Shown here: piece after piece, positions 34,739 through 62,871 of the stretch
Numbering within the stretch: position 1 is the first letter of the stretch
Layout of the letters: each line of letters opens with the position of its first letter
Source: an uncultured Eggerthella sp.
Lineage (GTDB): Bacteria > Actinomycetota > Coriobacteriia > Coriobacteriales > Eggerthellaceae
DNA length: 64,000 bases
Assembly: GCA_900542065.1 (NCBI GenBank)
Contig: UQLU01000001.1
Location: 105,967-169,966 of the forward strand
Reading direction: 5' to 3'
Position numbers and translations under genes: made by a program
Notes under the pieces: model-generated
What the model was told of the DNA's origin: nothing
The model's database searches: none
The model's input: the letters and a program-made list of their open reading frames with translations, nothing else

Positions 34739-34748
34739 GGAGATATTG

Positions 34749-48022: not shown

Positions 48023-48051
48023 CCCCCTCTGGCTCCCTTTCCAGAGGGGGG
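48023..48051 (+). promoter_or_regulatory. GC-rich hairpin (CCCCCTCTGG-N8-CCAGAGGGGGG) in the leader upstream of the caiC-like gene
   Basis: Read directly. Additional C tracts at 47992-48000 and G tracts at 48055-48070 flank it. Confidence 0.35.
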
Positions 48052-48337
48052 ATATAGGGGGGGTAAAGGGAAATTAATGTGAGTTGTGACTTATTTCATT
48101 GGTGAAATTCAACGAAATTTTCATTCGGTTGGTGTCGCTTTGGTTTCACATCTGCTTGTAGCTTCGTTTTCTTTGATAAAAACCCACATAGTCTCTCTCC
48201 TCTTCTTTTTTCGGAATTCTTTGGTTGCATTCCTATGTGGGTTTCTATCAGGGATAACAAAAGGGGATCGTTCAACTTTTTGCAAAAGGGGATTTCAGCA
48301 AAGTTGAACTACCTATTCTTCGGAGGAGGAAACGAAG

Positions 48338-49954: not shown

Positions 49955-50019
49955 TTGCACGTACCTTTGTAACTCTCCTTATTTATTGAGAACGCATCCG
50001 CAGAGGAAAGGTTACCTAA

Positions 50020-50891
50020 TGACGATCAAAACAGATATTGTGGGCAAAGAATTTGGTCCGTTTGTGCGCGATTATACCTTTAAGGATTTAGAGATTTGTG
50101 CACTTGGCTGCAATGCTGGCTATGACGGTAAAACTGATTTGGAATACATCAATGAAGGCGATGCTAAAGATCCACAGCTTAAAGTGCTGCCGATTTTTGG
50201 TGTACCTCTAACGGTTAATGAAGAGATGACTCGTACCTTGGACTATGGCTACGATTATTCAGGTTCTCTTCATAATGGCTTTGAAATTCGCCTCCATGCG
50301 CCCTTCAAGATGAACGATCATATTGAGACGTTTGTAACTCAAGCTGCGCTCTACGATCGCGGTGAAGGTCGCGGATGTCTTTCAAAACAGACAGCTAGAA
50401 GCTATAGCGCAGATGGTACGCATCTTTGTACCGTTGAGACATGGGATGTGAGTATCTACGATGGTGGTTGGGGAGGACCAAAACCTCCACGTGATATAGT
50501 AGAGATACCTGATCGTGCACCAGATAAGCTAGTTACGGAAACTATGCCGTACAACATGCCATTAATCTATCGTTTGATGGGTGACTGGCATCAGCAGCAT
50601 ATCGATTGGTCTTATACCGAGCAAACAGGTCTTGATCGACCCATTGCACATGGGGTTAGTCTTGGCGGATTTACTATGCGCCATATCATTTCTAGCTGGT
50701 TCCCAGGCGAACCTGAGCGCATGACTCGCTTTAAAACGCGTATCGCTTCTCCAGTGATACCTGGACAAGCGTTGACCACTCGTATGTGGCAAGTAGGCGA
50801 AAAAGAAATCCGTTTTCAGCTGGTTGATTCTGATGCCGATCAAACAGGAGCAAAACCACATTTGAATTACGGCATATGCGAATGGGACTAG
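50020..50891 (+). CDS. Double-hotdog MaoC-like (R)-specific enoyl-CoA hydratase/dehydratase
   Basis: About 290 aa from ATG 50020 with a GAGGAAAGG RBS. The C-terminal hotdog carries a hydratase-2 motif variant (YRLMGDWHQQHIDWSYTEQTGLDRPIAHG), and the N-terminal hotdog appears non-catalytic. Confidence 0.65.
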
Positions 50892-50906
50892 GACTAGGTG
50901 AGATTT

Positions 50907-52316
50907 ATGAGGCAGCATCTTAAAACATTAGCAAAGACGGTTACTACTCCTAAGGTTGTTGTAGAAGCTGTTGGCGATGGGAGTGTTACTCGTTCCATTA
51001 AGCATGCTGCTCGTAAAACTATTGACGATGTTGCAATGACGCCGTTTCTTCGTAAGATCACGTTCTTTTCCAGTGGGGGTGCCTTTTTAGAGGGGTATGC
51101 TCTATCGTTAATTGGTGTTGCACTTACTCAAATTACTCCATTATTTGAATTAGATTCATTCTGGAGCGCTGCTATTGGCGCTTCAGTTTTTCTCGGTATT
51201 TTAGTCGGCGCTATTTTAGGCGGTTATCTTACTGACTTAATTGGACGTCGTAAGATGTTCATTATCGACATGATTGCTATCGGCGTCGTGTCAATTCTTT
51301 CGATGTTTTCTACCGAGCCTTTGCATCTAGTTTTGGCGCGTTTCCTTATTGGCTTTTTCGTTGCCGCTGATTATCCTATCTCAACCGCTATGATCACCGA
51401 ATTTACTTCTAAACGTTATCGTGCCATTGCAATGGGTATGGTTTCTGCTTCATGGTACTTCGGTGCAACTGCTGCTGCCTTTGTAGGGTTTGCCTTATTC
51501 CCGATGGATGATGGCTGGAAGTGGATGCTTGGAAGCGCTGCTATTCCTTGTTTAATATTGCTTATCGGTCGTCATGATATTCCTGAGTCTCCCTTATGGC
51601 TTCGTGCTAAAGGAAGGTTAGAGGAAGCTCGTGCTGTTATGGATCGCGTCTATGGCGAAGATGTTGACTTCAATGATGAAGAGCAGGTCGGACGCACCAG
51701 CATGGCTCAAATTTTCAAGGGTGGTTATTTTAAACGAGTTGTCTTTGTAGGATTGCTGATTCTTTGTCAAGTTGTTCCGATGTATGCAATTTACACCTTT
51801 GGTCCTGACATCATGACTGCATTTGGTTTGGGCGAGGGTCGTGACTCAATCTTGGGAGAAGCAGCGGTTAGTTTATTCTTCCTAATTGGCACATTTCCTG
51901 CAATGTTTTGGCTGAACTCTATCGGACGTCGTCCTTTATTGATTGGCTCGCTTGCTTTTATGGCGATTGGTTTAATTATTCTTGGTGTATTCCCTGCAGC
52001 TCCCGTAATCGTCATTATTCTTGCTTTTGGTCTGTATGCATTCTTTAGTGGTGGACCTGGCATTTTGCAGTGGTTGTATCCTAACGAGCTTTTCCCAACA
52101 TCGGTTCGCGCTTCAGCGGTAGGAATTGCTATTTCTATTTCACGCGTGGGTACTATTGTTTCAACTTACGGAACACCGCTTATGCTTGAACAGTTTGGCG
52201 TCGGTCCAACGATGCTTGTTGCTGCAGGTCTTGTTGTGCTTGGGCTGGTGCTTTCTATCTTTATGGCTCCTGAAACAAGAGGCAAATCTTTGGCAGAAAC
52301 AAGCAAAATCCACTAA
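50907..52316 (+). CDS. MFS transporter of the metabolite:H+ symporter / sugar-porter type (ProP/KgtP-like)
   Basis: GRRKMFIIDM and PESPLWL motifs, 12 predicted TMs. ATG 50907 is preceded by AGGTGA. It starts 16 nt after the hydratase stop. Confidence 0.7.
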   Translation: MRQHLKTLAKTVTTPKVVVEAVGDGSVTRSIKHAARKTIDDVAMTPFLRKITFFSSGGAFLEGYALSLIGVALTQITPLFELDSFWSAAIGASVFLGILVGAILGGYLTDLIGRRKMFIIDMIAIGVVSILSMFSTEPLHLVLARFLIGFFVAADYPISTAMITEFTSKRYRAIAMGMVSASWYFGATAAAFVGFALFPMDDGWKWMLGSAAIPCLILLIGRHDIPESPLWLRAKGRLEEARAVMDRVYGEDVDFNDEEQVGRTSMAQIFKGGYFKRVVFVGLLILCQVVPMYAIYTFGPDIMTAFGLGEGRDSILGEAAVSLFFLIGTFPAMFWLNSIGRRPLLIGSLAFMAIGLIILGVFPAAPVIVIILAFGLYAFFSGGPGILQWLYPNELFPTSVRASAVGIAISISRVGTIVSTYGTPLMLEQFGVGPTMLVAAGLVVLGLVLSIFMAPETRGKSLAETSKIH

Positions 52317-52780
52317 CTTCAGTAAGTACATGATTTCTTAGTCGCATAGAACAGATTATTAATTTCTGTTGCTTTATGTGACTGCGTCTATTATTTTTGG
52401 CATTTAAGACGTTATGGTACGCATTTTTTGAGAAAGTAACACATCTAGAAAATCCTAATTCAATAGCATGTAACTAAGTAGACAATATAGGTAACAACCG
52501 ATTGCTTAGCTGTTCGCCTCCTGAATACTTTCCTAAAATCATCGAAGAAGAGTATTACTTTTTTAAATATTGCGTACCACCCCTGCAGATTTAGGAAGAA
52601 ATGTGTACTTTCCCACGAAACTTATCATCTAGTCGCACTCTGCGATGTAATTAGCTATGCGTAAATTGTAATTATCTAAATTTGCGGCATCTACACTGGC
52701 TATATCAAAATGATTCAAGAACAAATGAATATACATTTCTTGCATTATCTGCAGGGGTAGGTCTCAAATCGCAAAAATCT

Positions 52781-52820
52781 AAAAGACGCCTAAGCTATGT
52801 AAGCTTAGGCGTCGTATTTT
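52781..52820. terminator. Strong bidirectional-looking hairpin (12-bp stem GACGCCTAAGCT / AGCTTAGGCGTC) with flanking A and T runs, inside the gene-free gap
   Basis: Read directly. It lies 165 bp downstream of the caiD-like stop on the minus strand and ~465 bp downstream of the MFS gene on the plus strand. Confidence 0.45.
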
Positions 52821-52984
52821 AGAGAGGAGTGGATTATGAATCGATGCTGCCCTTTACTTGAAGAAAGGATTTGTCTGTTGAGGGTTAGTAAAGGGCAGTG
52901 GTAGGTGAGGGCTTGTGTTCATGAAATGAACTTTGTTGTAGAAGTGAACTTCCTTCTACAAAGATTAGCGATCAAGTTGCGCTT

Positions 52985-53770
52985 TTAGCGACCTTTCCAA
53001 ACTGGTTCGCGCTTCTCAACAAATGCTGCAGGGCCTTCAATGCCGTCTTCAGTCTTTTCCAAGAAGCGATAAGCTGCATCGCAATACTTCATAGCATCTT
53101 CTTCAGACATCTGGTCTGCAGCATGAACAAGGTACTTAGTCCACTTAAGAGCCAAAGGAGCGTTCTTTAAGCATTGCTCTGCAAGCTCGATTGCCTTATC
53201 CATAACTTCTTCAGCAGGAACTACATAGTTGATAAGGCCAAGCTTCTGCGCTTCTTCTGCTTTAATCTTCTTACCAGTAAGAAGAAGTTCCATGCAATCT
53301 TTGCGGTTGATGTCACGAGCAAGACGAACGATACCGCCCGTAGAAGCGATAATGCCCAAGCCTACTTCGGTACAACCAAATTTAGCGCGATCGGATGCTA
53401 CAACCATGTCGCAGGAAAGTGCGATTTCCATACCACCGCCAGCAGCAGAGCCATTGCAAGCAGCAATTACGGGCTTAGAGCACGTGCGAGCAGTTAAACC
53501 ACCGAAACCATGTTCGGTTACTGTCTGGCATTCTCCGCCTTCAGAAAGCTCGGAGAGGTCTTCGCCAGCGCAGAATACTTTGCCCGTGCCTGTAACGATA
53601 ATTGCGCGAACAGCAGGATCAGTCTCTGCATTGTTCATAATGTTTTCCATGGCTTTTGAAGTTGCACCGTTGAGTGCATTTGCCATGTCAGGACGATTGA
53701 TGCGGATAATCAGAAGTCCGTCTTCACGGAGCTCTGATACGACCGTATCGGTTCCATAATAATCTGCCAT
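52985..53770 (-). CDS. CaiD-like enoyl-CoA hydratase/isomerase (carnitinyl-CoA dehydratase family, crotonase fold)
   Basis: 261 aa crotonase fold (VFCAGEDL...AACNGSAAGGGMEIALSCDM). The C-terminal IEGPAAFVEKREPVWKGR closely matches the CaiD C-terminus as I recall it. Strong GGAGG RBS. Confidence 0.7.
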   Translation of the reverse strand: MADYYGTDTVVSELREDGLLIIRINRPDMANALNGATSKAMENIMNNAETDPAVRAIIVTGTGKVFCAGEDLSELSEGGECQTVTEHGFGGLTARTCSKPVIAACNGSAAGGGMEIALSCDMVVASDRAKFGCTEVGLGIIASTGGIVRLARDINRKDCMELLLTGKKIKAEEAQKLGLINYVVPAEEVMDKAIELAEQCLKNAPLALKWTKYLVHAADQMSEEDAMKYCDAAYRFLEKTEDGIEGPAAFVEKREPVWKGR

Positions 53771-54150
53771 TGTTTCCTCCTTGTACTACCTCGTATAGGT
53801 AAATAGGTGCATTAAGATTTTTAAACTTCCCATTTGTGTTTGTAGGAACAACACATGTTCTTAATGCACTTTAGATGGTATGAATTTTGTTGTTTTGCAG
53901 CATCGCGAGCTATTGCGTATAGGCTAATTACTTAAAAAAGACCACTCACTACTTTTTAAGTATTGTGTTGATTAGGGGTTTGTACCACTAGGGGTAGTAC
54001 TTGATATACACGCGAAAAGGAAACAGATAATTCCATTTACCGAGCAATCAAGCGTTCCCCGCGAACACAGGGCAGCATATCTTGGCATTACTACTAGAGT
54101 AAATACATCGCCTTTAGGGCGATTTTGTCTATCAGTTGCAGAAGAGGTGG

Positions 54151-56097
54151 ATGCCCATGGAAATGATTGGATTCCTTATCCTGTTTCCGCTCATTGTTGC
54201 GGGCTTGCTTTTGGTCTTTCGTAAGACGAAGCCCCGCAATGTAATTGTATGTATTGGATCGGCAGCAATTGCTATCGTCTCAATTGTCCTCGTTGTTACT
54301 TATATGGGTACAACAGGCACGTACTTTACGTTTGAATCGGTGTATGTTGATTACATTTGCCTTGCGGTTGACGTAATTATTGCAATTACCATCATTGCTT
54401 TTGGTGTTAAGTATCGCAACGCACCTGCAATCATCCTTGCAATCATTCAAATTGCGGGTACGTTAGTGTATGAATTCATGTTTGCACATGGTCTAGAGTG
54501 CTCACGTAGTTTATATATCGATTCTTTGTCGTTAATTATGGCGCTTATTATCGGTATTGTGGGTACGGGTATTTGCGTGTACTCCATTGGCTATATGCAT
54601 GACTTCTACTTTGGTATTCATCACCCTGAAACTGAAATGCCTGATCGACGTCCAACGTTCTTTGCGTTGATGTTTGTCTTCCTCTCTGCAATGTATGGCA
54701 TCATTTTCTTTAACAATATGATTTGGCTCTTCACTGCATGGGAAGTAACCACGCTGTGTTCGTTCTTGCTTATTGGCTTTACGAAAACCGATGAGGCAAT
54801 CCATAATGCCTTCCGCCAGATTATTATGAACCTGGTTGGTGGTATCGCTTTCTTGGCGGCGCTGTATTACCTCGCAATTCAGTTCAGCTGCATTGACTTT
54901 ATGGACTTCATTGTATTTGGCACTATTGCACCAACCTATGTCGTCTTACCTCTTACGTGCTTAAGCTTGGCCGGTATGACAAAAGCTGCTCAAATGCCAT
55001 TCCATACCTGGCTTTTGGGAGCAATGGTTGCACCCACGCCAACTTCTGCGCTTCTGCATTCTTCTACGATGGTAAAGGCTGGCGTATTTATGCTTATTAA
55101 ATGCGCACCTATTTATGCGGTTTCCTTTGCGCCATCTATCTTGGTTATTCTTGTTGGTGGAATTACCTTCTTGTTGTGTTCAATGATGGCTATTTCACAG
55201 TCGAATGGTAAGCGCGTTTTGGCATATTCTACAATTGCTAACCTTGGCTTGATTACTGCCTGCGCTGGCGTTGGTACTGCTGAGGCTATTTGGGCAGCTA
55301 TTTTGTTGGTTATTTTCCACGCTGTTGCAAAAAGCCTTTTGTTCCTTTGTGTTGGTACTGCAGAACACCATATCGGTTCGCGTGACATTGAAGATATGGA
55401 TTTGCTCTTTGAACGTATGCCACGTCTGTCCCGTATGATGATTGTCGGTATCATGATTATGTTCTTGGCGCCCTTTGGCATGCTGGTTGCTAAATGGGCA
55501 ACATTGGTTTCGTTTGTCGATACCCGTCAGTTTGCGCTTTTGTTAATGCTTGCATTCGGTTCTGCTGCAACCTTTATGTTCTGGGGTAAATGGCTTGGAA
55601 AGCTTGCAGGCATTACGGGTACTCCTGAAAGTATCGAGAAAACAGTTCATTGGAGTGAATGGGTAGCTACCATGACCTTTACTATTCTTGCATTGGTTAG
55701 CTGCGCAACTATTCCACTTATGTCTGATTACTTAATTGAGCCTTATATTGCTTCTGTTCTTGGTATTGCCATCCAGCCTATTCTTGATGACGATCTCTAT
55801 ATTGCGGGAATTTGTTGTTTGGTTATGGCTGTGGTCCTTTTGGGTGGCATGCGCAAGTACAAGAAGGGTGTACGTAAGACTGACGCATATCTTTCTGGTA
55901 TTTCGGTTAATAATGCTGACCGTACCTTTGTTAATGCGCTCTCTCAGCCCATGCAGGCAACCGCTCGAAACTGGTATTTAGAGCCAGTATTTGGCGAAGC
56001 AAAGATTAAACCTATCGGTACTATTGCTTGCTATGTATTGCTTGCTGCTGCATTTGTTTGGGCAATTTATTTAACCGTTGCAATGGGAATTCTTTAA
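54151..56097 (+). CDS. echA: Ech-type hydrogenase membrane subunit EchA (NuoL/MnhA/HyfB-like antiporter module)
   Basis: About 649 aa polytopic protein with NuoL-family conserved TM helices (WEVTTLCSFLLIGF). ATG at 54151 has a GAAGAGGTGG RBS; the ORF-track TTG at 54136 is less likely. Confidence 0.75.
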   Translation: MPMEMIGFLILFPLIVAGLLLVFRKTKPRNVIVCIGSAAIAIVSIVLVVTYMGTTGTYFTFESVYVDYICLAVDVIIAITIIAFGVKYRNAPAIILAIIQIAGTLVYEFMFAHGLECSRSLYIDSLSLIMALIIGIVGTGICVYSIGYMHDFYFGIHHPETEMPDRRPTFFALMFVFLSAMYGIIFFNNMIWLFTAWEVTTLCSFLLIGFTKTDEAIHNAFRQIIMNLVGGIAFLAALYYLAIQFSCIDFMDFIVFGTIAPTYVVLPLTCLSLAGMTKAAQMPFHTWLLGAMVAPTPTSALLHSSTMVKAGVFMLIKCAPIYAVSFAPSILVILVGGITFLLCSMMAISQSNGKRVLAYSTIANLGLITACAGVGTAEAIWAAILLVIFHAVAKSLLFLCVGTAEHHIGSRDIEDMDLLFERMPRLSRMMIVGIMIMFLAPFGMLVAKWATLVSFVDTRQFALLLMLAFGSAATFMFWGKWLGKLAGITGTPESIEKTVHWSEWVATMTFTILALVSCATIPLMSDYLIEPYIASVLGIAIQPILDDDLYIAGICCLVMAVVLLGGMRKYKKGVRKTDAYLSGISVNNADRTFVNALSQPMQATARNWYLEPVFGEAKIKPIGTIACYVLLAAAFVWAIYLTVAMGIL

Positions 56098-56114
56098 GGC
56101 GAAGGAGATACTGA

Positions 56115-56996
56115 ATGGATACTTTAATTTCAATCCTCATTACACTTCTTGCCTCTGTGGTATTTGCTATTGTTGCAACAGTATTAGGTTGCTTGCTTTC
56201 GGGTCTTGACCGTAAGGTAACGGCACGTATGCAAGGTCGTGTTGGTCCTCCTTTGCTTCAGCCTTATTACGATGTGCGTAAGTTGTTCGCCAAGGAGAAC
56301 GCGAGCGTAAATACCGCTATCGGTACGTACGTATTTTGGGCTCTCATCTTTACCTTTATTGCAGGTGGCATCTTTATTTCTGGTGGCAATATCTTGCTTT
56401 GCGTATTTATTGTTACGCTTTCAGAAATGCTTTTTATTATGGCTGCTTATGCTGCTCGTTCGCCTTTCGCTGAAGTTGGAGCGCATCGCGAAACGCTGCA
56501 GGTTATGGCGTATGAACCTATGGTCTTGCTTCTTGCGGTTGGATTCTTTTTAGCAACAGGAAGCTTTAATGTTTCAACGGTTTTGCACCTTGATTATCCG
56601 ATCATTGGCTCTATTGTTGGTGTGTTTATTGGTTTGCTCTTTATCCTTACCATTAAACTTCGCAAATCACCATTCGACCTTTCTTGTTCGCATCACGCTC
56701 ACCAAGATTTGGTCAAAGGTGTAACTACCGAAATGTCTGGAAAGGTATTAGGCCAAGTAGAAATAATGCATTGGTGCGAGAACATTTTGTTCTTAGCATG
56801 GGTTGCCCTGTTCTTCATTTGGGAAAGCCCTCTATGCATACCCGTTGTTATCATTGCCTTAGTTTTGATTTATCTCTTAGAAATTTGGATTGATAACAAT
56901 TTTGCTCGCGTTAAATGGCAGCTCCTACTTAAGTCCGCTTGGATTGTTACGCTGGTATTTGCGGGTATTAACATTGGATTATTGATTTATCTGTAA
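56115..56996 (+). CDS. echB: Ech hydrogenase membrane subunit EchB (NuoH/HycD-like)
   Basis: 293 aa with RMQGRVGPPLLQPYYDVRKLF, the hallmark NuoH/HycD N-terminal loop. Confidence 0.8.
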   Translation: MDTLISILITLLASVVFAIVATVLGCLLSGLDRKVTARMQGRVGPPLLQPYYDVRKLFAKENASVNTAIGTYVFWALIFTFIAGGIFISGGNILLCVFIVTLSEMLFIMAAYAARSPFAEVGAHRETLQVMAYEPMVLLLAVGFFLATGSFNVSTVLHLDYPIIGSIVGVFIGLLFILTIKLRKSPFDLSCSHHAHQDLVKGVTTEMSGKVLGQVEIMHWCENILFLAWVALFFIWESPLCIPVVIIALVLIYLLEIWIDNNFARVKWQLLLKSAWIVTLVFAGINIGLLIYL

Positions 56997-57005
56997 GGAG
57001 AAGAT

Positions 57006-57449
57006 ATGTCTGCTATTTCTAAATCTCCTTGGATTATTCACTATGATGGCTCTAGCTGTAATGGCTGTGATATCGAGGTATTAGCTGCTTTAACGCCCCT
57101 TTATGATGCAGAGCGTTTTGGTGTTATCAATACTGGTAACCCAAAGCATGCCGATATCTTTTTGGTAACAGGAAGCGTAAATCAGCGCAATATTAGCGTT
57201 ATTCAAGAGATTTACAACCAGATGGTTGAACCTAAAGTAGTGGTAGCTTGTGGAGTTTGCGCATGTTCAGGCGGTATTTTCCATGACTGCTATAACGTTA
57301 TTGGTGGTGTTGACCAGGCAATTCCTGTTGATGTTTATGCGGCAGGTTGCGCTGTTCGCCCTGAAGCAATTATCGATGCAGTAGTACAGGGTGTTGCTGT
57401 ATTAGAAGAAAAAGCAAAAAAGATTGCTGAGCAGAAGAAAGGTGCCTAA
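57006..57449 (+). CDS. echC: Ech hydrogenase small subunit EchC (NuoB-like, [4Fe-4S])
   Basis: 147 aa with SCNGCDIEVL and CG..CA.SGG Cys ligands of the NuoB/HycG family. Confidence 0.85.
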   Translation: MSAISKSPWIIHYDGSSCNGCDIEVLAALTPLYDAERFGVINTGNPKHADIFLVTGSVNQRNISVIQEIYNQMVEPKVVVACGVCACSGGIFHDCYNVIGGVDQAIPVDVYAAGCAVRPEAIIDAVVQGVAVLEEKAKKIAEQKKGA

Positions 57450-57451
57450 CA

Positions 57452-58087
57452 ATGTCGGTTAAACAAGACTTTCGACCCTTGGCACTCGATCAGCTAATTG
57501 ACACGTGCAAGGAATATAAAGAAAAAGGATATCGCTTAGACCAGCTGCTTCCTAAGCTTGAGCGTGATGACACCATAACGCTGATTTATACCTTTGTAAT
57601 GGGTGAGGAGATTGTCAATTTCAAAATTGGCGGAATTATTAAAAATGAAACCGTTGTTCCTTCTGTTACGGAATTATTTATTGCGGCATTTGTTTTTGAA
57701 AATGAGGCTCACGAGCTCTATGGCGTAAACATTGAAGGTAATGTTTTGGACTTCAAGGGTAACTTCTATAAATTCCCTGAAGGTGTAGAAGCTCCTATGA
57801 CCATTATTTCGCCTGAACAGCTTGCTGCTCGAGAAAAAGCTGCAAAGATTGCTGCTGCTAAAGCTGCTCGTGAAGCAAAAGCAAAAGCAGCAAAAGAAGG
57901 TCAGGGTACTGCACCATCTCAAAGCGTAGATGAAGCAACACAAGCTCAAAAAGAAGCAGAACTTGAAGCGAAGCTTGCTGGAATGGATCCTGAAAAGGCT
58001 GCAAAAGTTCGTGCTGCTATGGAAGCAAAAGCTAAACGTGCGGCGAAAACACAAACTACAACCGACACTTCAAAGGAAGGGGAGTAA
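57452..58087 (+). CDS. echD: Ech hydrogenase subunit EchD (NuoC/30-kDa-like) with an ~90-aa Ala/Lys/Glu-rich C-terminal tail
   Basis: The N-terminal ~120 aa match the NuoC-like fold (FIAAFVFENEAHELYGVNIEGN). The tail has AKAAREAKAKAAKE-type repeats. Confidence 0.7.
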   Translation: MSVKQDFRPLALDQLIDTCKEYKEKGYRLDQLLPKLERDDTITLIYTFVMGEEIVNFKIGGIIKNETVVPSVTELFIAAFVFENEAHELYGVNIEGNVLDFKGNFYKFPEGVEAPMTIISPEQLAAREKAAKIAAAKAAREAKAKAAKEGQGTAPSQSVDEATQAQKEAELEAKLAGMDPEKAAKVRAAMEAKAKRAAKTQTTTDTSKEGE

Positions 58088-58089
58088 TA

Positions 58090-59178
58090 ATGGGAAAAGC
58101 TCAAGTTATACCCTTCGGCCCTCAGCATCCAGTTTTACCAGAACCAGTTCATTTGGATTTGGTTGTTCAGGATGAAACGGTTGTTGATGTACTTCCGCAG
58201 ATTGGTTTTATTCATCGCGGTTTAGAAAAGCTCGTGGAAACACGTGATATTCATCAATATATCTATGTAGCTGAACGTATTTGTGGTATTTGCGCGTTTG
58301 GCCATAGTTATGGTTATGCCCAAGCGGTTGAAACGCTTATGGGTGCCGAAGTTCCTATGAGAGCTGAATATTTGCGTACGATTATGCACGAGCTTTCTCG
58401 TATCCATTCTCATCTTTTGTGGATGGGATTAGCAGCTGACGCTTTTGGTTATGAAAGCTTATTTATGCATACCTGGCGACTGCGTGAGCGCATCCTAGAT
58501 ATTTTTGAAGCAGTAGCAGGTGGTCGAGTAATTCTTTCTTATACACTCTTGGGCGGTGTTACTAAAGATATTGATGCACCAATGCTTGCATCTATTAAAG
58601 ATACTCTTAAAGGTATCGGCAAAGAATATGGCGAAATCTGTAATGCTTTTTTGAAGGACTCTTCCGTTAAGAATCGTACGGTTGGTGTAGGTATTGTTGA
58701 TGAAGAGCATGCCTACGAATACGGTATGGTTGGTCCTTTTGCTCGAGCAAGCAACGTTAACAACGATGTTCGTTGTTTGGGAATTGGCGGATACGGCGAA
58801 CTGTCTTCCTTTGAACCCATTTTAGATACTGCTGGTGACTGTTATGCGCGTGTTAAGGTTCGCGCTTTAGAGGTGCTACAGTCCATTGATATTATCAACG
58901 AATTGATTGATAAGATTCCTGATGGTCCTGTTCATATTCCTGTTAAGGGCGCTCCAGCAGATGGATCTGAAGCCTGCAATATTTTAGAACAGCCGCGTGG
59001 TGAAGTGTTCTATTACTGCAGTGGTAATGGTACTAAGAATCTTGAGCGTATGCGTATTCGCACCCCAACTTCACAGAACCTTGCAGGCATGACCATGGCA
59101 CTTAAAGGTTGTGAAATTGCCGATGTAAACATGATCGTACTTTCAATTGACCCTTGCATTAGTTGTACGGAAAGGTAG
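58090..59178 (+). CDS. echE: Ech hydrogenase [NiFe] large subunit EchE (NuoD/HycE-like)
   Basis: 362 aa with an N-terminal RICGICAFGHSYGYAQA motif and a C-terminal DPCISCTER motif. These are the two CxxC pairs that ligate the Ni-Fe centre. Confidence 0.85.
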   Translation: MGKAQVIPFGPQHPVLPEPVHLDLVVQDETVVDVLPQIGFIHRGLEKLVETRDIHQYIYVAERICGICAFGHSYGYAQAVETLMGAEVPMRAEYLRTIMHELSRIHSHLLWMGLAADAFGYESLFMHTWRLRERILDIFEAVAGGRVILSYTLLGGVTKDIDAPMLASIKDTLKGIGKEYGEICNAFLKDSSVKNRTVGVGIVDEEHAYEYGMVGPFARASNVNNDVRCLGIGGYGELSSFEPILDTAGDCYARVKVRALEVLQSIDIINELIDKIPDGPVHIPVKGAPADGSEACNILEQPRGEVFYYCSGNGTKNLERMRIRTPTSQNLAGMTMALKGCEIADVNMIVLSIDPCISCTER

Positions 59179-59185
59179 GAGCGTG

Positions 59186-59638
59186 ATGGGTGGTTTTAAA
59201 TTAGGAAAGATGACCCTTCGCTCGCTTTTTTCAAAACCCGAAACCATTCGGTATCCTTTTGAAGAGCCTGAGCATCCTGCTTGTATGAAGGGCCTTGTAG
59301 AATTTGATTACACAAATTGCATCTATTGCGGCATTTGCGAAAAGCGTTGTCCTACTAATGCCATTTCGGTTAATAAAGATGATCAAACATGGACTATTGA
59401 TCATTTTTCCTGCATTCAATGCGGATCTTGTATTCGTGAATGTCCGAAATCTTGCTTGACTATGGATCCTGTGTTAGTTCATCCTAGTACCGTGAAGACT
59501 AAGGTAACAGTTTCAAAACCTGAGCCAACCGAAGAGGAAAAGGCTGAGCTTGCACGCAAAGAAGCTGAAAAAGCTGCTAGAATCAAGGCTGCGAAGGAAG
59601 CAAAAGCAGCACGCGAGAAAGCAGCCGCAGAGCAATAG
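59186..59638 (+). CDS. echF: Ech hydrogenase 2x[4Fe-4S] ferredoxin subunit EchF (NuoI-like) with an Ala/Lys/Glu-rich C-terminal tail
   Basis: CIYCGICEKRCP and CIQCGSCIRECP clusters. The tail reads EEKAELARKEAEKAARIKAAKEAKAAREKAAAEQ. ATG 59186 has an AAAGGTAGGA RBS. Confidence 0.8.
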   Translation: MGGFKLGKMTLRSLFSKPETIRYPFEEPEHPACMKGLVEFDYTNCIYCGICEKRCPTNAISVNKDDQTWTIDHFSCIQCGSCIRECPKSCLTMDPVLVHPSTVKTKVTVSKPEPTEEEKAELARKEAEKAARIKAAKEAKAAREKAAAEQ

Positions 59639-59683
59639 TGTTACAGTAGTGCTTTGTAGGTTTTTGTGTATACTTTTGGTTTT

Positions 59684-59714
59684 AAGAACCGGGCCTTCAA
59701 GCCCGGTTCTTTTG
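59684..59714 (+). terminator. Rho-independent terminator of the ech operon
   Basis: AAGAACCGGGC-CTTCAA-GCCCGGTTCTT followed by TTT. Confidence 0.65.
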
Positions 59715-59728
59715 TGAAGGATGGGGTA

Positions 59729-60388
59729 ATGGCAGAACATAAAAAGACAGAAGAATACGAGGTCAGCAATAAAATATGTACGCTGCCGAATCTTCTTTCT
59801 TTTATTCGGCTTTGCATGATTCCAGCATTTTTAATCTTGCTTCTAAATGGATATAACCTCATCGCTACTCTTATTTTTGCTATTGCAGCTTCTACAGACT
59901 GGATCGATGGTCAGGTTGCTCGTCGAACCAATTCTGTGTCGAAGTTGGGCCAATTACTCGATCCTTTTGTTGATCGTTTTTTGATGATTTCTGGTGTAGT
60001 TGGTTTGTTGCTGGTTGGCAGGTTGCCAATTTGGATCGTTTTAGTGGTAGTTCTTCGCGATGTTTTTATGCTTGCTGGTAGTTCGTATCTGCTTACCCGT
60101 TGGAAAGTCCGCGTACCCGTTATTTATGCTGGTAAAGTAGCTACCACTTTCTTATATATAGGATTTGCGGGAGTTTTGCTTAATATGCCTCTCCTTGAAG
60201 GTCTGGGTTGGGTCAATGTTTCGTGGTTGCCTGCTTTTTCCTATGATTGGTATTCTTGGGGTTTTTGGTTTGTGTATGCAGGCCTTATTATGCTTGTTGG
60301 TACTACAACCTATTACATTATTAAGGGAGTACAAGGGATGAGGAATGCTCAGCGCTTAGAGCACGAGGTAGCAGGGGAGACTAAGTAG
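59729..60388 (+). CDS. pgsA: CDP-alcohol phosphatidyltransferase (PgsA-like)
   Basis: DWIDGQVARRTNSVSKLGQLLDPFVDR matches the DG..AR...G...D...D signature. Multi-TM. ATG 59729 with a GAAGGATGGGG RBS. Confidence 0.8.
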   Translation: MAEHKKTEEYEVSNKICTLPNLLSFIRLCMIPAFLILLLNGYNLIATLIFAIAASTDWIDGQVARRTNSVSKLGQLLDPFVDRFLMISGVVGLLLVGRLPIWIVLVVVLRDVFMLAGSSYLLTRWKVRVPVIYAGKVATTFLYIGFAGVLLNMPLLEGLGWVNVSWLPAFSYDWYSWGFWFVYAGLIMLVGTTTYYIIKGVQGMRNAQRLEHEVAGETK

Positions 60389-60390
60389 AA

Positions 60391-62871
60391 ATGCCTACTA
60401 AACGTCCTCGTAGCTCGCAGTTTAATTTTAGAGGTGAAGGAAAAAAGCGTGTTACTCAGCCACGAGCTGATCATGCTTCATTTTCTCGTGGCCCTCGGAC
60501 TTCGCATTTTTCTCAAACTCGTGAAAACCTCTCAGCAGCACGTGAACAGGAAAAGCCACTGTTGCGTTCATCTGCTCGCATTAATGAAATACGTACGCGC
60601 AATAAATCAGCTGATGCTGCAGCGCCACTTACCAACGCTTCTGCTTCTAAGGCGCGCCCCGTGCGTCGCCAGACAGCACCACAAGGCCAAAGAAAACCGC
60701 AGCGACCTTCTGTTGTTCAGCGAGGTTTGAAACCGAATAATAACCCATCTCAGCCCGCATCTCCTTCTTTGCCCAACTCTTCATTGAAGCGCTCAAGAGT
60801 GGTTCGCGATTCAGCGTCGCGACAGCGCTCTAATACGGCTGCAATTGCTGAACAAAATATGAGTGGTCATATTTGGAACCAGGCTAATCAAGTTCCTAAA
60901 AAAGCTGGTCGTTTAAAGGCAGGTTCGAGCGCTAAACACTCCAATGCTCGTTCTCCTTTTGCGGGATCTCGGTCTTCATCGGGTAGTAACTTTACTTCAC
61001 CAAAAGGGCCTTCAGCTCTTCATAGCGTTAAGGTAAAGCGACATTTCCCAACACGAATTGTGCTAGGTGTATTGGTGGTTATTCTGCTTTTTGCAGGCGC
61101 TACTGGCATTGATTCGTTGCTTAATGGCAATAAGATTTATCAGGGCGTATCTATTGGTGATGTTAATGTTTCTGGTTTAACCAAAGATGAGGCTATCCAA
61201 GCTGTGTCTGGATATTATTCTCCTCGTGTTTCTGATAATGTGGCGACGTTCTATACCACCCAAGAAGCGCAAGATAATCCCACGACTGCTGAAAATTCTG
61301 AAAGTATTGAAGAGCAAATCTCCTACGAAGAATCCCTGGATTCTCGAACTCAGTGGACTATTCCTTCTTCCTACTTAGATACCACCTTTAATGTTGAAGA
61401 TGTTGTAGAAAAAGCCTACCAGGTGGGTCGTTCGAATGGCAATATTATTGCGCGCATACAGGCTTCTCTTAATGGCTGGAATATTCAGCCTGAATGCACT
61501 TTTAATGAAACTACCTTATCTGAGATCCTTAAAGAAATGACCTCCGCAGTAGGATCGGAACGGGTAAATTTCAACATCGAAATGAACGATGAAGGTATTG
61601 CTTCGGTTACTTCTGGTCATGATGGCAATGAAGTAGTGCGCGATTGGCTTGTTGGTCATTTAAATGAAACGTACTTTGGCGGACAAACCGAAACAAAATA
61701 TGTGCTTGAAACTCAATATATGCCTTTGCAAATAACTGAAGAGATAGCTACTAAATGCGCCGATAAAGTGAATGCTTCTTTATCTGCTGGCGCGGTGTTT
61801 TCTTACGAAGGGCAATCTTGGAATGCTTCGCGTACCGATCTTGCGCCTTGGATTAAGACCGATGTGGTTCAAACAGGTAATACCTGGGATTTGAAACCGC
61901 TCTTTGATGAAGGCGTAGCTAAAAAGAGCCTTCTTCATTCTTTGCAGTCAAATATTCATCAGGGTGACTTACAGGTAACGTTTAGTAAAGACGATCAAGG
62001 TGCTATTTCGGTATCGAGTAATGCTACTGGTACGGTACCGTTAGTTTCTGATGCAATTAACCAGATGAATGATACATTCTTTGTGAATGATTCACGTACT
62101 GAAGCACCTACTATCGAGCTTTCTTCGACTGATTTACCCTCAACTATGTCTTTTAATGATGCTATAGATTTTGGCTTAATTTCTGAAGTCTCTTCCTTTA
62201 CTACGCAGTATTCTTCGGGTGCTGAAGCACGAACTAATAATATTCATACCGCTGCAAATCTTTTAAACAATTCAATTATTACTGCTAATGGAGGATCGTG
62301 GTCCTTTAACGATACTGCTGGTGAAGCCACTGAAGATAAGGGTTACCAAAATGCTGGCGCCATTATTGGAGGCGATTATTCTGACGCTATTGGTGGCGGT
62401 ATTTGCCAAGTAGCCACGACGGTATTCAATGCAATTTATGATGCGGGTTATCCTGTAACTGAGCGTCATAATCATACGTTGCACATTGAGAGCTATCCTG
62501 AAGGTAGAGATGCTGCAATTGCCTATCCTTACATGGACTTGGTATGGGAAAACGATTCTTCTTCTGATGTATTGCTTGTTATGAGCTACACCAATTCTTC
62601 TGTTACCTGTACGCTTTGGGGTGTTGATCCTGGATACGAAGTTTCTACCGATTATGGCGATTGGCAGGAAGGTGAACCCTATTCTGTTCAATACCGCACC
62701 GATGATACGGTAGCTTCTGGTACGGAATATGTTGAAACTACAGGAGTGAATGGAAGCAGCATTTCTATTACGCGAATCGTTAAAGATTCCGATGGTAAAG
62801 TGCTTCATGAGGATCTGTTTGAATCAAACTATTCGCCGAAGAATCAAGTTATTGTTCGAGGTACCGCTTAA
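60391..62871 (+). CDS. VanW-domain protein with a long basic disordered cytoplasmic N-terminus, one TM and a large extracytoplasmic region
   Basis: 826 aa. VanW core (IIGGDYSDAIGGGICQVATTVFNAIYDAGYPVTERHNHTLHIESYPEGRDAAIAYPYMDL) and a C-terminal G5-like region. Confidence 0.8.
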   Translation: MPTKRPRSSQFNFRGEGKKRVTQPRADHASFSRGPRTSHFSQTRENLSAAREQEKPLLRSSARINEIRTRNKSADAAAPLTNASASKARPVRRQTAPQGQRKPQRPSVVQRGLKPNNNPSQPASPSLPNSSLKRSRVVRDSASRQRSNTAAIAEQNMSGHIWNQANQVPKKAGRLKAGSSAKHSNARSPFAGSRSSSGSNFTSPKGPSALHSVKVKRHFPTRIVLGVLVVILLFAGATGIDSLLNGNKIYQGVSIGDVNVSGLTKDEAIQAVSGYYSPRVSDNVATFYTTQEAQDNPTTAENSESIEEQISYEESLDSRTQWTIPSSYLDTTFNVEDVVEKAYQVGRSNGNIIARIQASLNGWNIQPECTFNETTLSEILKEMTSAVGSERVNFNIEMNDEGIASVTSGHDGNEVVRDWLVGHLNETYFGGQTETKYVLETQYMPLQITEEIATKCADKVNASLSAGAVFSYEGQSWNASRTDLAPWIKTDVVQTGNTWDLKPLFDEGVAKKSLLHSLQSNIHQGDLQVTFSKDDQGAISVSSNATGTVPLVSDAINQMNDTFFVNDSRTEAPTIELSSTDLPSTMSFNDAIDFGLISEVSSFTTQYSSGAEARTNNIHTAANLLNNSIITANGGSWSFNDTAGEATEDKGYQNAGAIIGGDYSDAIGGGICQVATTVFNAIYDAGYPVTERHNHTLHIESYPEGRDAAIAYPYMDLVWENDSSSDVLLVMSYTNSSVTCTLWGVDPGYEVSTDYGDWQEGEPYSVQYRTDDTVASGTEYVETTGVNGSSISITRIVKDSDGKVLHEDLFESNYSPKNQVIVRGTA

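What the first reader, a model, noticed from the sequence alone, without database searches (positions are those of the whole stretch)
54151..59638. Complete six-subunit Ech-type (group 4) energy-converting [NiFe] hydrogenase operon whose EchD and EchF carry Ala/Lys/Glu-rich tails
The gene order and sizes match echABCDEF exactly: a NuoL-like membrane subunit, NuoH-like, NuoB-like, NuoC-like, the [NiFe] large subunit with both CxxC pairs, and a 2x[4Fe-4S] subunit. No formate dehydrogenase (so it is not a formate hydrogenlyase), no CO dehydrogenase or CooA, and no hypA-F or hycI maturation genes lie in the window. Unusually, both soluble accessory subunits EchD and EchF end in ~35-90-aa histone-H1-like AKEAKAAREKAAA low-complexity tails, which are not part of canonical Ech, Hyc or Coo subunits. 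Such tails could mediate docking to a partner such as a ferredoxin, to a nucleoid or membrane surface, or be a lineage-specific feature. An Ech complex implies ferredoxin-coupled H2 metabolism with ion translocation in this organism.
Basis: partly seen in the sequence, partly recalled or inferred. Interest (0 to 1): 0.6.

Follow-up and report, generated by a model that had tools for sequence, protein, structure and literature searches.

The report
Ech hydrogenase with conserved helical tails
A human-gut Eggerthellaceae bacterium carries an ordinary, already annotated six-gene Ech-type membrane hydrogenase, but two of its small subunits end in strongly conserved helical add-on modules found only in this bacterial group; their job, perhaps docking a redox partner, is unknown.

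Summary
Window 54151-59638 (+) encodes echABCDEF. The subunits are, in order, NuoL-like, NuoH-like, a NuoB-like small subunit, NuoC-like, a [NiFe] large subunit with both CxxC pairs, and a 2x[4Fe-4S] subunit. The proteins are identical to public entries of Eggerthella sp. CAG:1427, and the operon is conserved across Coriobacteriia. No hyp, hycI, formate dehydrogenase or CO dehydrogenase gene lies in the window. HycI is not needed, because EchE ends at the Arg after its second CxxC.

The tails are real but mis-described. They are neither frameshift artefacts, nor plain low complexity, nor histone-H1-like (net charge only about +3).
- EchD carries a 30-residue helix, a free-evolving linker, and a 36-residue helix-turn-helix motif (consensus ELEAKLAGMDPEKAAKVRAAMEAKAKK).
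- EchF carries a related 32-residue helix.
- These modules are as constrained as, or more constrained than, the folded cores (pN 0.05-0.07, with synonymous sites near saturation).
- The motif occurs in 0-5 copies and sits on EchD or EchF depending on lineage.
- In 1.84 billion representative proteins it is found essentially only in these Ech subunits.

The function is unproven. My best guess is a tethered docking module at the ferredoxin-facing tip. The operon is known; the tail module is a new variant.

The parts
54157..56097 (+). echA: NuoL/MrpA-like antiporter-type membrane subunit. ATG 54157 has the best Shine-Dalgarno spacing.
   Evidence: Pfam PF00361 1.2e-46 and PF00662. The best solved relatives are MrpA (6z16_A, 3e-45) and ND5/NuoL. 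The NuoL channel residues E144, K229, H254, H338, K342 and K399 are all conserved.
56115..56996 (+). echB: NuoH-like membrane subunit.
   Evidence: Pfam PF00146 1.9e-41. Solved relatives are MbhM (6cfw_M, 3e-18) and HycD (7z0s_D, 3e-14).
57006..57449 (+). echC: hydrogenase small subunit (NuoB-like) carrying one [4Fe-4S] cluster. The cysteines are C18, C21 (CNGC), C85 (GVCACSGG) and C115 (GCAVRPE).
   Evidence: Pfam PF01058 5e-28. Solved relatives are MbhJ (1.3e-41) and HycG (5.5e-34), with the four cysteines aligned.
57452..57805 (+). echD core (residues 1-118): NuoC-like alpha/beta domain.
   Evidence: Pfam PF00329 1.5e-7. The AF2 model has pLDDT above 95 over this region. Foldseek matches MbsK (6u8y_K, 1.7e-5) and complex I 30-kDa subunits.
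57806..57901 (+). EchD tail module 1 (residues 119-150): conserved A/K-rich helix, ISPEQLAAREKAAKIAAAKAAREAKAKAAKEG.
   Evidence: AF2 predicts a helix at 121-150 with pLDDT 90-95. pN is 0.054 against pS 0.67. It scores 18.9 bits against the motif profile, versus 7.3+-2.6 for shuffles (4 of 1000 reach it).
57902..57946 (+). EchD linker (residues 151-165): disordered, rich in S/T/Q/P/E, and variable in length and sequence between species.
   Evidence: pLDDT is about 50. pN is 0.46 over residues 148-168. The sequence is not alignable between genera.
57947..58054 (+). EchD tail module 2 (residues 166-201): helix-turn-helix motif, QKEAELEAKLAGMDPEKAAKVRAAMEAKAKRAAKTQ.
   Evidence: AF2 predicts helices at 161-176 and 180-203. 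pN is 0.055 against pS 0.62. Positions 5-31 are highly conserved in 70 distinct copies. The motif occurs in 0-5 copies per EchD across 80 loci. Only 76 hits were found in 1.84 billion proteins.
58073..58084 (+). Shine-Dalgarno sequence of echE (AAGGAAGGGGAG), embedded in the last echD codons. This explains the conserved terminal K-E-G-E.
   Evidence: Read directly from the sequence. EchD orthologues end in KEGE, KGGE or EEGE.
58090..59178 (+). echE: [NiFe] large subunit. The L1 motif RICGICAFGH is at nt 58282-58305 and the L2 motif DPCISCTER is at nt 59149-59175. The protein ends at the Arg, with no C-terminal extension.
   Evidence: Pfam PF00346 3.3e-53 and PF00374 2.7e-15. MbhL (7e-72) and HycE (1e-64) align with both CxxC pairs.
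59186..59485 (+). echF core (residues 1-100): NuoI/MbhN-like 2x[4Fe-4S] subunit, with CIYCGICEKRCP and CIQCGSCIRECP.
   Evidence: Pfam Fer4 families. NCBIfam NuoI, FpoI and HyfH families match below their cutoffs. MbhN (6cfw_N) matches at 2.7e-10. The start codon is supported.
59528..59623 (+). EchF tail helix (residues 115-146): TEEEKAELARKEAEKAARIKAAKEAKAAREKA. It is a diverged copy of the EchD motif's second helix.
   Evidence: pN is 0.07, against 0.15 for the Fe-S core. It scores 26.2 bits against the EchD motif profile, versus 6.7+-2.5 for shuffles (0 of 1000 reach it).

Best explanation
**Identity of the locus (shown by sequence).** This is the echABCDEF operon of an uncultured human-gut Eggerthellaceae bacterium (Eggerthella sp. 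CAG:1427). It encodes a minimal six-subunit complex-I-like group 4 [NiFe] hydrogenase. All metal-binding motifs and the antiporter-channel residues are intact.

**How the enzyme works (inferred from characterised Ech enzymes).** Reduced ferredoxin delivers electrons to the two clusters of EchF. They pass through the EchC cluster to the Ni-Fe site in EchE, which reduces protons to H2. The reaction is reversible. It is coupled through EchB and EchA to ion translocation.

**The tails (shown).** In Eggerthellaceae the two subunits at the membrane-distal tip carry C-terminal copies of one helical unit, core EKAA[KR][IV]xAAxEAKAxR.
- On EchD there is a helix fused directly to the NuoC-like core. Behind a disordered linker follow 0-5 copies of a 36-residue helix-turn-helix version of the unit.
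- On EchF there is a single helix.
- The units are under purifying selection as strong as, or stronger than, that on the folded cores.
- They are not a general feature of the proteome and are found essentially only in Ech subunits.
- At least one unit is kept in almost every member of the clade, on either subunit.

**What the tails do (inferred, about 35-40% likely).** I think the units are tethered docking sites. They would hold a soluble partner close to the electron entry site of EchF. The partner could be ferredoxin, or a ferredoxin-reducing enzyme such as the indolepyruvate or pyruvate:ferredoxin oxidoreductase. Copy number would tune capture.
For: **Identity as a hydrogenase**
- Pfam, NCBIfam and PDB matches exist for all six subunits.
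- The Ni-Fe and Fe-S ligands are present.
- The NuoL channel residues are present in EchA.
- The gene order matches ech.
- Public names include 'ech hydrogenase subunit F' and 'NiFe-hydrogenase III large/small subunit'.
- An Ech complex is recognised in E. lenta (PMC10234575).

**The tails are real and under selection**
- Pooled Nei-Gojobori pN values for EchD are 0.054 (helix 1), 0.055 (motif), 0.46 (linker) and 0.08 (core), with pS 0.62-0.76 throughout.
- For EchF, the tail helix has pN 0.07 against 0.15 for the core.
- There is no tandem DNA repeat in the tails.

**One shared unit**
- Composition-controlled shuffles support a shared unit.
- Both helix faces, including the charged residues, are conserved.

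**Modularity**
- The motif occurs in 0-5 copies per EchD.
- It also occurs on EchF, in L064, P0146 (3 copies) and P0149.
- Some lineages carry it on EchD only and others on EchF only.

**Exclusivity**
- A profile search found 76 hits among 1.84 billion representative proteins. Apart from three unrelated repeat proteins and three apparent chimeras, they are EchD-like (34), EchF-like (2), one EchE-linked sequence or short tail-only fragments.
- Only EchD and EchF among the 61 window ORFs have such segments.

**Predicted structure**
- AF2 predicts a long helix, a disordered linker and a helical hairpin.

**Ferredoxin context**
- iorAB lies a few kb downstream of ech in relatives, and a paaK-like gene sits at the window end.
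- ack and pta are in the window.
- PFOR-based metabolism has been proposed for E. lenta.
Against: - No experiment or complex-level structure prediction links the tails to any partner. No candidate partner co-occurs with the motif in the 8-kb flanks.
- Helix 1 follows the core without a linker and is predicted with very high confidence. It could simply be a fixed structural element, like the C-terminal extensions of complex I 30-kDa subunits.
- The units are only mildly basic, so electrostatic capture of acidic ferredoxin is not obvious.
- The hairpin motif is missing from EchD in several lineages (for example L027-L032). All units are missing in more distant Coriobacteriales (L068-L080). They are therefore accessory.
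- Assignment to a group 4 subgroup (4e) rests on subunit set and gene order, not on a phylogeny with reference sequences.
- The hyp maturation genes were not located.
- The direction of catalysis in vivo is unknown.
Confidence: 0.6

Rival explanations
1. The tails are structural. The helices pack on the peripheral arm, or on each other, as Ala-seamed helical bundles. They would clamp EchD to EchF and EchE, or link neighbouring complexes into oligomers or arrays. This would resemble the lineage-specific extensions and supernumerary helices of complex I.
For: Three units of one helix type sit on two adjacent subunits. Helix 1 is fused directly to the core and has pLDDT 90-95. The hairpin is predicted to fold on itself. 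The hydrophobic positions L6, L10, M13, V21 and M25 and the small Ala positions are conserved. The EchD core has the NuoC fold, whose complex I relatives carry C-terminal extensions.
Against: A fixed site cannot accommodate 0-5 copies on long disordered linkers. The EchD and EchF units do not co-occur obligatorily: some lineages have them on EchD only, others on EchF only. Charged surface positions are as conserved as the hydrophobic seam. Relatives without any unit exist (L068-L080).
Confidence: 0.28
2. The tails bind a polyanionic surface rather than a protein. Candidates are anionic phospholipid head groups (a pgsA-like gene follows echF), or nucleic acid or nucleoid as with histone-H1-like actinobacterial tails.
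For: The units are mildly basic, with net charge +2 to +4 and pI 9.2-10. Multivalency suits binding to a surface by avidity. A CDP-alcohol phosphatidyltransferase gene lies about 75 nt downstream in 54 of 80 loci.
Against: D+E is 13-25%, so the tails are ampholytic and unlike H1 or AKP-type tails. The apolar face is Ala/Val/Met and too weak for membrane insertion. Position-specific conservation of acidic residues (E7, D14, E16) is not expected for generic polyanion binding. The downstream synteny consists of housekeeping genes conserved across the family.
Confidence: 0.08
3. The tails are non-functional: frameshift or assembly artefacts, or neutrally drifting low-complexity extensions typical of the lineage.
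For: Other reading frames stay open across the A/K/E-coding DNA. Tail length varies from 0 to about 240 aa between lineages. Two assemblies break inside the tail (L048 and L056).
Against: The same frame and the same modules are kept in dozens of species. Synonymous sites are near saturation (pS 0.6-0.76) while pN is 0.05-0.07 in the modules, as low as or lower than in the folded cores. The exact 211-aa protein is seen on many independent contigs. No other protein in the window has such a segment. There is no DNA tandem repeat.
Confidence: 0.02
4. The complex is not an Ech hydrogenase. It could instead be a Nuo/Fpo/MBS-like non-hydrogenase, or the hydrogenase module of a formate hydrogenlyase or a CO-dependent Coo system.
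For: The top NCBIfam names are NuoD, NuoB and FpoD, though all fall below their cutoffs. MBS subunits also appear among the PDB hits.
Against: All four Ni-Fe cysteines are present, and the small subunit has the hydrogenase-type CNGC instead of the complex I CC motif. The window has no NuoEFG, HycB, FdhF, CooS, CooF or CooA. The large subunit has neither the fused NuoC domain nor the C-terminal extension of HycE. The order L-H-B-C-D-I is that of ech, not of cooMKLXUH (my knowledge of the coo operon).
Confidence: 0.03

Closest known systems
Ech hydrogenase of Methanosarcina barkeri, and bacterial Ech such as Thermoanaerobacter kivui Ech2 and the Eggerthella lenta Ech complex ([NiFe] group 4e)
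   Same: It has the same six subunit types, and the echABCDEF order of the M. barkeri operon (order from my knowledge). There is a single antiporter-like subunit. The large subunit has no C-terminal extension. A ferredoxin-type 2x[4Fe-4S] subunit serves as the electron entry point. The EchD core is about 13 kDa, matching the 14-kDa Ech2D of T. kivui (PMC4320612).
   Different: EchD is 211 aa, carrying a 93-aa tail. EchF carries a 50-aa tail. The tails hold a conserved helical unit that was found essentially only in EchD- and EchF-like sequences. Slackia-type relatives fuse EchA and EchB.
Membrane-bound hydrogenase MBH of Pyrococcus furiosus (PDB 6CFW; group 4d)
   Same: It provides the best solved relatives of EchE (MbhL, 7e-72), EchC (MbhJ, 1e-41) and EchB (MbhM, 3e-18), and also matches EchF (MbhN, 3e-10). 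The metal ligands are the same, and MbhL also ends at ...CxxCTDR.
   Different: MBH has 14 subunits, including an Mrp-type sodium module. The tails have no sequence counterpart in any PDB chain.
E. coli formate hydrogenlyase (PDB 7Z0S; group 4a)
   Same: It has homologous HycE, HycG, HycD and HycF subunits.
   Different: HycE has a fused NuoC-like N-terminal domain and a C-terminal extension that extends beyond the alignment. By my knowledge this extension is removed by HycI. FHL also needs HycB and FdhF. None of these is present here.
C-terminal repeats of E. coli RsxC/RnfC (VDPRKAAVEAAIARAKARK, six copies)
   Same: These are also Ala/Lys-rich helical repeats that start with D-P-(E/R)-K-A-A. 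They sit on the cytoplasmic subunit of a ferredoxin-linked, ion-translocating membrane complex. The profile aligns all six repeats in one register, and the score exceeds shuffles (10.5 bits against 3.1+-2.0, 6 of 1000).
   Different: There is no statistically supported homology: about 0 bits after composition correction, and RsxC is absent from the 76 profile hits. The RsxC repeat lacks the first helix of the hairpin. Its function is also unknown to me. I treat this as a lead only.
Charged single alpha-helices (ER/K-type SAH) and TolA-like A/K/E-rich helices
   Same: The composition is similar, and long isolated helices are predicted.
   Different: SAH segments act as spacers between domains and are conserved in composition rather than by position. 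Here the helices are terminal and position-specifically conserved.

Membership tests
Group 4 (energy-converting, complex-I-like) [NiFe] hydrogenase | The large subunit has the N-terminal RxCGxCxxxH and C-terminal DPCxxCxxR Ni-Fe ligand motifs. | tested here: met
   RICGICAFGH is at residues 63-72 and DPCISCTER at residues 354-362. Both align with MbhL and HycE.
Group 4 (energy-converting, complex-I-like) [NiFe] hydrogenase | The small subunit is NuoB-like with a single proximal [4Fe-4S] cluster and a CxxC first pair, instead of the CC pair of complex I. | tested here: met
   CNGC, GVCACSGG and GCAVRPE align with MbhJ and HycG.
Group 4 (energy-converting, complex-I-like) [NiFe] hydrogenase | Membrane subunits are homologous to NuoH and to NuoL/MrpA, with the charged channel residues intact. 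| tested here: met
   Supported by Pfam and PDB matches. The equivalents of NuoL E144, K229, H254, H338, K342 and K399 are present in EchA.
Ech-type hydrogenase (subgroup 4e) | There are exactly six subunits in the order A(NuoL)-B(NuoH)-C(NuoB)-D(NuoC)-E(NuoD)-F(NuoI), with no Mrp module, HycB, FdhF, CooS or CooF. | tested here: met
   Shown, and by the neighbour scans. The IMG name is 'ech hydrogenase subunit F'.
Ech-type hydrogenase (subgroup 4e) | EchE clusters phylogenetically with reference 4e sequences (HydDB classification). | not tested
   No reference Ech, Coo or Ehf sequences were available to the tools. Among solved structures only groups 4d (MBH) and 4a (FHL) are represented.
Ech-type hydrogenase (subgroup 4e) | The enzyme carries out ferredoxin-dependent, ion-translocating H2 evolution or uptake. 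| not testable with these tools
   This needs biochemistry. The context is compatible: iorAB is near ech in relatives, and ack and pta are in the window.
Ech-type hydrogenase (subgroup 4e) | The large subunit has no C-terminal extension, so no specific endopeptidase is needed. | tested here: met
   EchE ends ...CISCTER, as MbhL ends ...CLSCTDR. HycE continues for 32 residues beyond this point.
Respiratory complex I / Fpo / MBS (non-hydrogenase relatives) | The NuoD-like subunit lacks the Ni-Fe cysteines, and NuoB carries the CCxxE motif. | tested here: not met
   All four cysteines are present, and the small subunit has CNGC.
Formate hydrogenlyase (group 4a) | The large subunit is a NuoC-NuoD fusion with a cleavable C-terminal extension, and HycB and FdhF partners are present. 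| tested here: not met
   EchD and EchE are separate proteins, EchE has no extension, and no HycB or FdhF lies in the window.
Histone-H1-like / AKP-rich polycationic tails of Actinobacteria | The tail is strongly basic, with few acidic residues, and is conserved in composition rather than by position. | tested here: not met
   K+R is 19-31% and D+E is 13-25%, giving a net charge of about +3. Conservation is position-specific, including E7, D14 and E16. pN is 0.05.
RsxC/RnfC C-terminal repeat | There is significant sequence similarity to the DPRKAAVEAAIARAKARK repeat. | tested here: inconclusive
   All six repeats align in the same register, and the score exceeds shuffles (6 of 1000). However, the score is about 0 bits after bias correction, and RsxC is not among the profile hits.

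The most novel reading that the evidence does not exclude
The EKAAK[VI]RAAMEAKAK helix, and its 36-residue helix-turn-helix form, may be a previously undescribed portable docking module of a complex-I-like enzyme. Tethered in 1-5 copies to the ferredoxin-facing tip of Ech, it would recruit ferredoxin or a ferredoxin-reducing 2-oxoacid oxidoreductase (IOR or PFOR). Gut Eggerthellaceae would then channel electrons from amino-acid or acetate metabolism directly into H2 and ion translocation. The RsxC/RnfC repeats might be a convergent or very distant version of the same device.
Probability: 0.3. Interest if true: 0.65.

Novelty: new variant of a known kind. Interest (0 to 1): 0.42.

Why it matters
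Ech is the simplest relative of respiratory complex I. How it meets its soluble electron donor is not settled, and no Ech chain appears among the solved structures I searched.

Eggerthellaceae such as Eggerthella lenta are prevalent gut bacteria that metabolise drugs and diet compounds, and their energy metabolism is poorly understood.

A short, highly conserved, copy-number-variable peptide module that occurs only on Ech gives a concrete handle. It can be used as bait to find the physiological partner, as a deletion target, and as a marker for this clade of hydrogenases in metagenomes.

If the tails turn out to be merely structural, the finding remains a lineage-specific decoration of a well-known enzyme.

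Tried and rejected
1. **Frameshift or neutral low complexity.** Rejected by the pN/pS comparison and by the absence of DNA tandem repeats.
2. **Histone-H1-like character.** Rejected by charge and composition.
3. **Homology of the motif to E. coli RsxC repeats.** The register matches but the score is not significant. I keep it only as an analogy.
4. **Solved-structure relatives of the tails.** None found at E up to 10.
5. **Obligatory pairing of the EchD helix with the EchF helix.** Rejected, because lineages exist with the unit on EchD only or on EchF only.
6. **A partner or hyp genes encoded next to ech.** Clustering the flanks of 80 loci gave only conserved housekeeping synteny and variable upstream genes. 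No hyp genes lie within 8 kb.
7. **A riboswitch or leader RNA upstream of echA.** No Rfam match. The promoter and terminator scan was uninformative.
8. **Literature on Ech in Eggerthellaceae or on Ech and RnfC tails.** Six searches found nothing on tails and only one passing mention of the E. lenta Ech complex.
9. **Fold search against AFDB.** The library was unavailable.
10. **General proteome habit.** Only EchD and EchF among the 61 window ORFs have such segments.

Full report
**1. What is at the coordinates**

ORF listing shows six co-directional genes separated by 2-17 nt, or slightly overlapping:
- echA: 54136/54151-56097
- echB: 56115-56996
- echC: 57006-57449
- echD: 57452-58087
- echE: 58090-59178
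- echF: ends at 59638

Pfam assigns them to Proton_antipo_M (1e-46), NADHdh (2e-41), Oxidored_q6 (5e-28), Complex1_30kDa (1.5e-7), Complex1_49kDa plus NiFeSe_Hases (3e-53, 3e-15) and Fer4 families. NCBIfam gives only below-cutoff Nuo, Fpo and Hyf names.

Two start codons need adjusting.
- echF most likely starts at ATG 59186, not at the overlapping TTG 59147. Orthologues start 5-8 nt after the echE stop. The public gene call is 150 aa. AGGTAGGAG lies just upstream of that ATG.
- echA probably starts at ATG 54157, behind GAGGTGG.

**2. Is it a hydrogenase?**

- **EchE.** Its best solved relatives are MbhL of the Pyrococcus membrane-bound hydrogenase (6cfw_L, 7e-72) and HycE of E. coli formate hydrogenlyase (7z0s_E, 1e-64). 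Both cysteine pairs align: RICGICAFGH and DPCISCTER. EchE ends at the Arg after the second pair, as MbhL does. HycE continues for another 32 residues. By established knowledge that extension is what HycI cleaves, so the absence of hycI is expected.
- **EchC.** It aligns with MbhJ (1e-41) and HycG (6e-34). It has the hydrogenase-type CNGC and the two further cluster cysteines.
- **EchF.** It has two CxxCxxCxxxCP motifs.
- **EchB.** Its closest solved relatives are MbhM and HycD.
- **EchA.** Its closest solved relatives are MrpA and ND5/NuoL. It keeps the equivalents of NuoL E144, K229, H254, H338, K342 and K399. That these residues line the NuoL channel is my knowledge of complex I.

**3. Which kind of group 4 enzyme?**

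- The subunit set has six subunits and a single antiporter-like subunit. The order L-H-B-C-D-I is that of echABCDEF.
- By my knowledge the coo operon has a different order. FHL has a fused NuoC-NuoD large subunit plus HycB and FdhF. MBH has an Mrp module.
- Pfam scans of every other ORF of 100 aa or more in the window found none of these, nor hyp genes.
- IMG names the identical EchF 'ech hydrogenase subunit F'.
- I could not run a phylogeny with reference sequences, so placement in subgroup 4e is inferred from architecture.

**4. Organism and conservation**

- The four proteins looked up (EchC, EchD, EchE and EchF) are identical to CCY06691-CCY06694 of Eggerthella sp. CAG:1427. There EchD is only a 'conserved domain protein / hypothetical protein'.
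- A scan of one genome per species found 201 related stretches. The best 80 are all Coriobacteriia-type operons, several in mislabelled bins, with the same gene order.
- An Ech complex is already recognised in E. lenta (PMC10234575).
- The operon itself is therefore known biology.

**5. The tails are real**

The 211-aa EchD recurs at full length in dozens of near and distant relatives. I compared the window with nine species for EchD and fifteen for EchF.

| Region | pN | pS |
|---|---|---|
| EchD core (1-118) | 0.08 | 0.76 |
| EchD helix (119-147) | 0.054 | 0.67 |
| EchD linker (148-168) | 0.46 | 0.73 |
| EchD motif (169-198) | 0.055 | 0.62 |
| EchD last 13 residues | 0.36 | 0.65 |
| EchF Fe-S core | 0.15 | 0.71 |
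| EchF connecting stretch | 0.30 | 0.76 |
| EchF 32-residue tail helix | 0.07 | 0.67 |

Synonymous sites are near saturation everywhere, so the constraint acts on the protein in this frame. It does not act on the DNA or on an overlapping ORF.

The DNA has no tandem repeat apart from a 17-nt AAGCAA run. The conserved terminal K-E-G-E of EchD is explained differently: those codons (AAGGAAGGGGAG) are the ribosome-binding site of echE.

**6. Anatomy of the tails**

- **EchD prediction.** AlphaFold2, with a 47-sequence alignment, gives mean pLDDT 86.9.
  - The NuoC-like core has pLDDT above 95.
  - A helix spans residues 121-150 with pLDDT 90-95.
  - A disordered linker follows with pLDDT about 50.
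  - Two helices (161-176 and 180-203) meet at the invariant Asp-Pro.
- **Core fold.** The core matches MbsK and complex I 30-kDa subunits over about 100-126 columns.
- **Motif consensus.** Seventy distinct motif copies give the consensus (D/E)(D/E)LEAKLAGMDPEKAAKVRAAMEAKAKK. Nearly all positions are highly conserved, charged ones included.
- **EchF tail helix.** AEKAARIKAAKEAKAARE matches the second helix of the motif (PEKAAKVRAAMEAKAKR). It scores 26.2 bits against the motif profile, versus 6.7+-2.5 for 1000 shuffles of the same residues (none reach it).
- **EchD helix 1.** It scores 18.9 bits versus 7.3+-2.6, and 4 of 1000 shuffles reach it.
- **Conclusion.** This complex carries three copies of one helical unit.
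- **Charge.** The tails are ampholytic, with net charge about +3. They are not H1-like.

**7. Distribution of the unit**

- **Across the 80 loci.**
  - The hairpin motif occurs 0-5 times on EchD. There are five copies in the 356-aa EchD of L051-L055.
  - Profile matches of 17 bits or more occur only in EchD and EchF, never in EchA, B, C or E.
  - Lineages exist with units on EchD only (for example L037-39, L051-55), on EchF only (L027-32, L042, L045-46, L065), or on both.
  - Almost all loci with EchE at least 68% identical keep at least one unit. The exceptions are L056 (assembly gap), L067 and L073.
  - The more distant Coriobacteriales (L068-L080) have none, and instead carry a different tail on EchC.
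- **The motif can sit on EchF.** Examples are L064, P0149 and the 300-aa EchF of the complete genome LR134379.1. That EchF has three copies, and its EchD has one.
- **Profile search.** A search of 1.84 billion representative proteins returned only 76 hits at E up to 1e-3.
  - 34 have an EchD core.
  - 2 have an EchF core.
  - 1 is linked to EchE.
  - Most of the rest are short tail-only fragments.
  - 3 are unrelated TPR-like or other repeat proteins.
  - 3 appear to be chimeric sequences (P0164, P0165, P0189).
- **Within the window.** No other protein has a comparable segment.

**8. What the tails might do**

The facts constrain the options.
- Position-specific conservation on both helix faces argues for a specific interface.
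- Variable copy number on disordered tethers, and transfer between the two tip subunits, argue against one fixed structural site. They favour a module whose only requirement is to be tethered near the top of the peripheral arm, where ferredoxin is expected to dock on the NuoI-like subunit. That expectation is an inference from MBH and FHL.
- Loss in some lineages shows the tails are accessory.

I therefore favour tethered docking of a soluble redox partner (about 35-40%). Next come a structural or oligomerisation role (about 28%) and polyanion binding (about 8%). None of these was tested.

Candidate sources of reduced ferredoxin are nearby in relatives. IorAB lies 5-7 kb downstream in at least 12 loci, and the paaK-like gene of that cluster runs off the window end at 62987.

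**9. Resemblance to RsxC**

E. coli RsxC ends in six VDPRKAAVEAAIARAKARK repeats. The motif profile aligns all six in one register, but at about 0 bits after composition correction. RsxC-type proteins are not among the 76 hits. Against shuffles the score is modestly high (6 of 1000). This is an analogy worth remembering, since both are ferredoxin-linked ion-translocating complexes. It is not demonstrated homology.

**10. Verdict**

The operon is already annotated and ordinary for Eggerthellaceae.

What is new, as far as the searchable literature and PDB show, is that the 'low-complexity' tails are a conserved, modular, Ech-exclusive helical unit. That makes this a new variant of a known enzyme, of moderate interest.

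Noticed in passing
window 62987-64000 (+), runs off the end; L082:9943-15906; loci: A PaaK-like aryl-CoA ligase gene starts about 115 nt after the VanW gene. In relatives the conserved downstream string is ech, a CDP-alcohol phosphatidyltransferase, sometimes VanW, paaK-like, ACT, Peptidase_S11, FHA and iorA/iorB. The last pair encodes indolepyruvate:ferredoxin oxidoreductase, so a ferredoxin-reducing enzyme lies a few kb from ech.
   Followed up: partly
L061, L063 (Slackia exigua ATCC 700122), L066, L082:2918-5827: In Slackia-type genomes echA and echB are fused into a single ORF of about 960-985 aa that carries Proton_antipo_M plus NADHdh.
   Followed up: no
L068-L080, EchC orthologues: In more distant Coriobacteriales, EchD has no tail (131-141 aa). 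Instead EchC carries a 40-90-aa acidic, Pro-rich tail beginning KRxALAAGxPxP. The EchF tail there is A/K/E-rich but does not match the motif profile.
   Followed up: no
window 59666-60388 (+): A CDP-alcohol phosphatidyltransferase (pgsA-like) gene follows echF by 28-90 nt, with no predicted terminator between them. It holds this position in 54 of 80 loci and may be co-transcribed with ech.
   Followed up: partly
window 54107-54123: A perfect hairpin (ATCGCC-TTTAG-GGCGAT) followed by TTTTG lies about 30 nt upstream of echA, inside a 365-nt divergent intergenic region. It has no Rfam match.
   Followed up: partly
window 34746-39437 (+): A 1563-aa protein has two BcrAD_BadFG ATPase modules plus DUF2229, resembling a 'CoA enzyme activase'. 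It follows a TetR-family regulator. Enzymes of this type normally need a low-potential electron donor.
   Followed up: no
window 47368-53770: Just upstream of ech lies a cluster of a LuxR-type regulator, an acyl-CoA ligase, a MaoC-like dehydratase, an MFS transporter and a divergent enoyl-CoA hydratase. The upstream neighbours of ech vary between species, and some have SUF Fe-S assembly genes instead.
   Followed up: partly
window 60391-62871 (+): The VanW/PG_binding_4/G5 protein has a basic N-terminal region of about 220 aa, rich in S/R/Q/P and apparently disordered, ahead of a transmembrane segment.
   Followed up: no
L012, L016, L017, L020, L022, L038 and others: Many metagenome bins that carry this Eggerthellaceae operon have unrelated organism names, such as Escherichia coli, Prevotella, Succinivibrio and Melainabacteria. 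These look like mislabelled or contaminated bins.
   Followed up: no
L048 and L056, echD tail: Runs of N fall inside the echD tail, and a shifted-frame ORF in L056 carries two DPEKAAKVRAA copies. Assemblies seem to break at the repeated motif, so copy numbers in draft genomes may be underestimated.
   Followed up: no
window 1227-2453 (+) and 2659-3657 (-): Acetate kinase and phosphotransacetylase genes are present. This fits the acetate/acetyl-CoA/pyruvate:ferredoxin metabolism proposed for E. lenta (PMC10234575).
   Followed up: no
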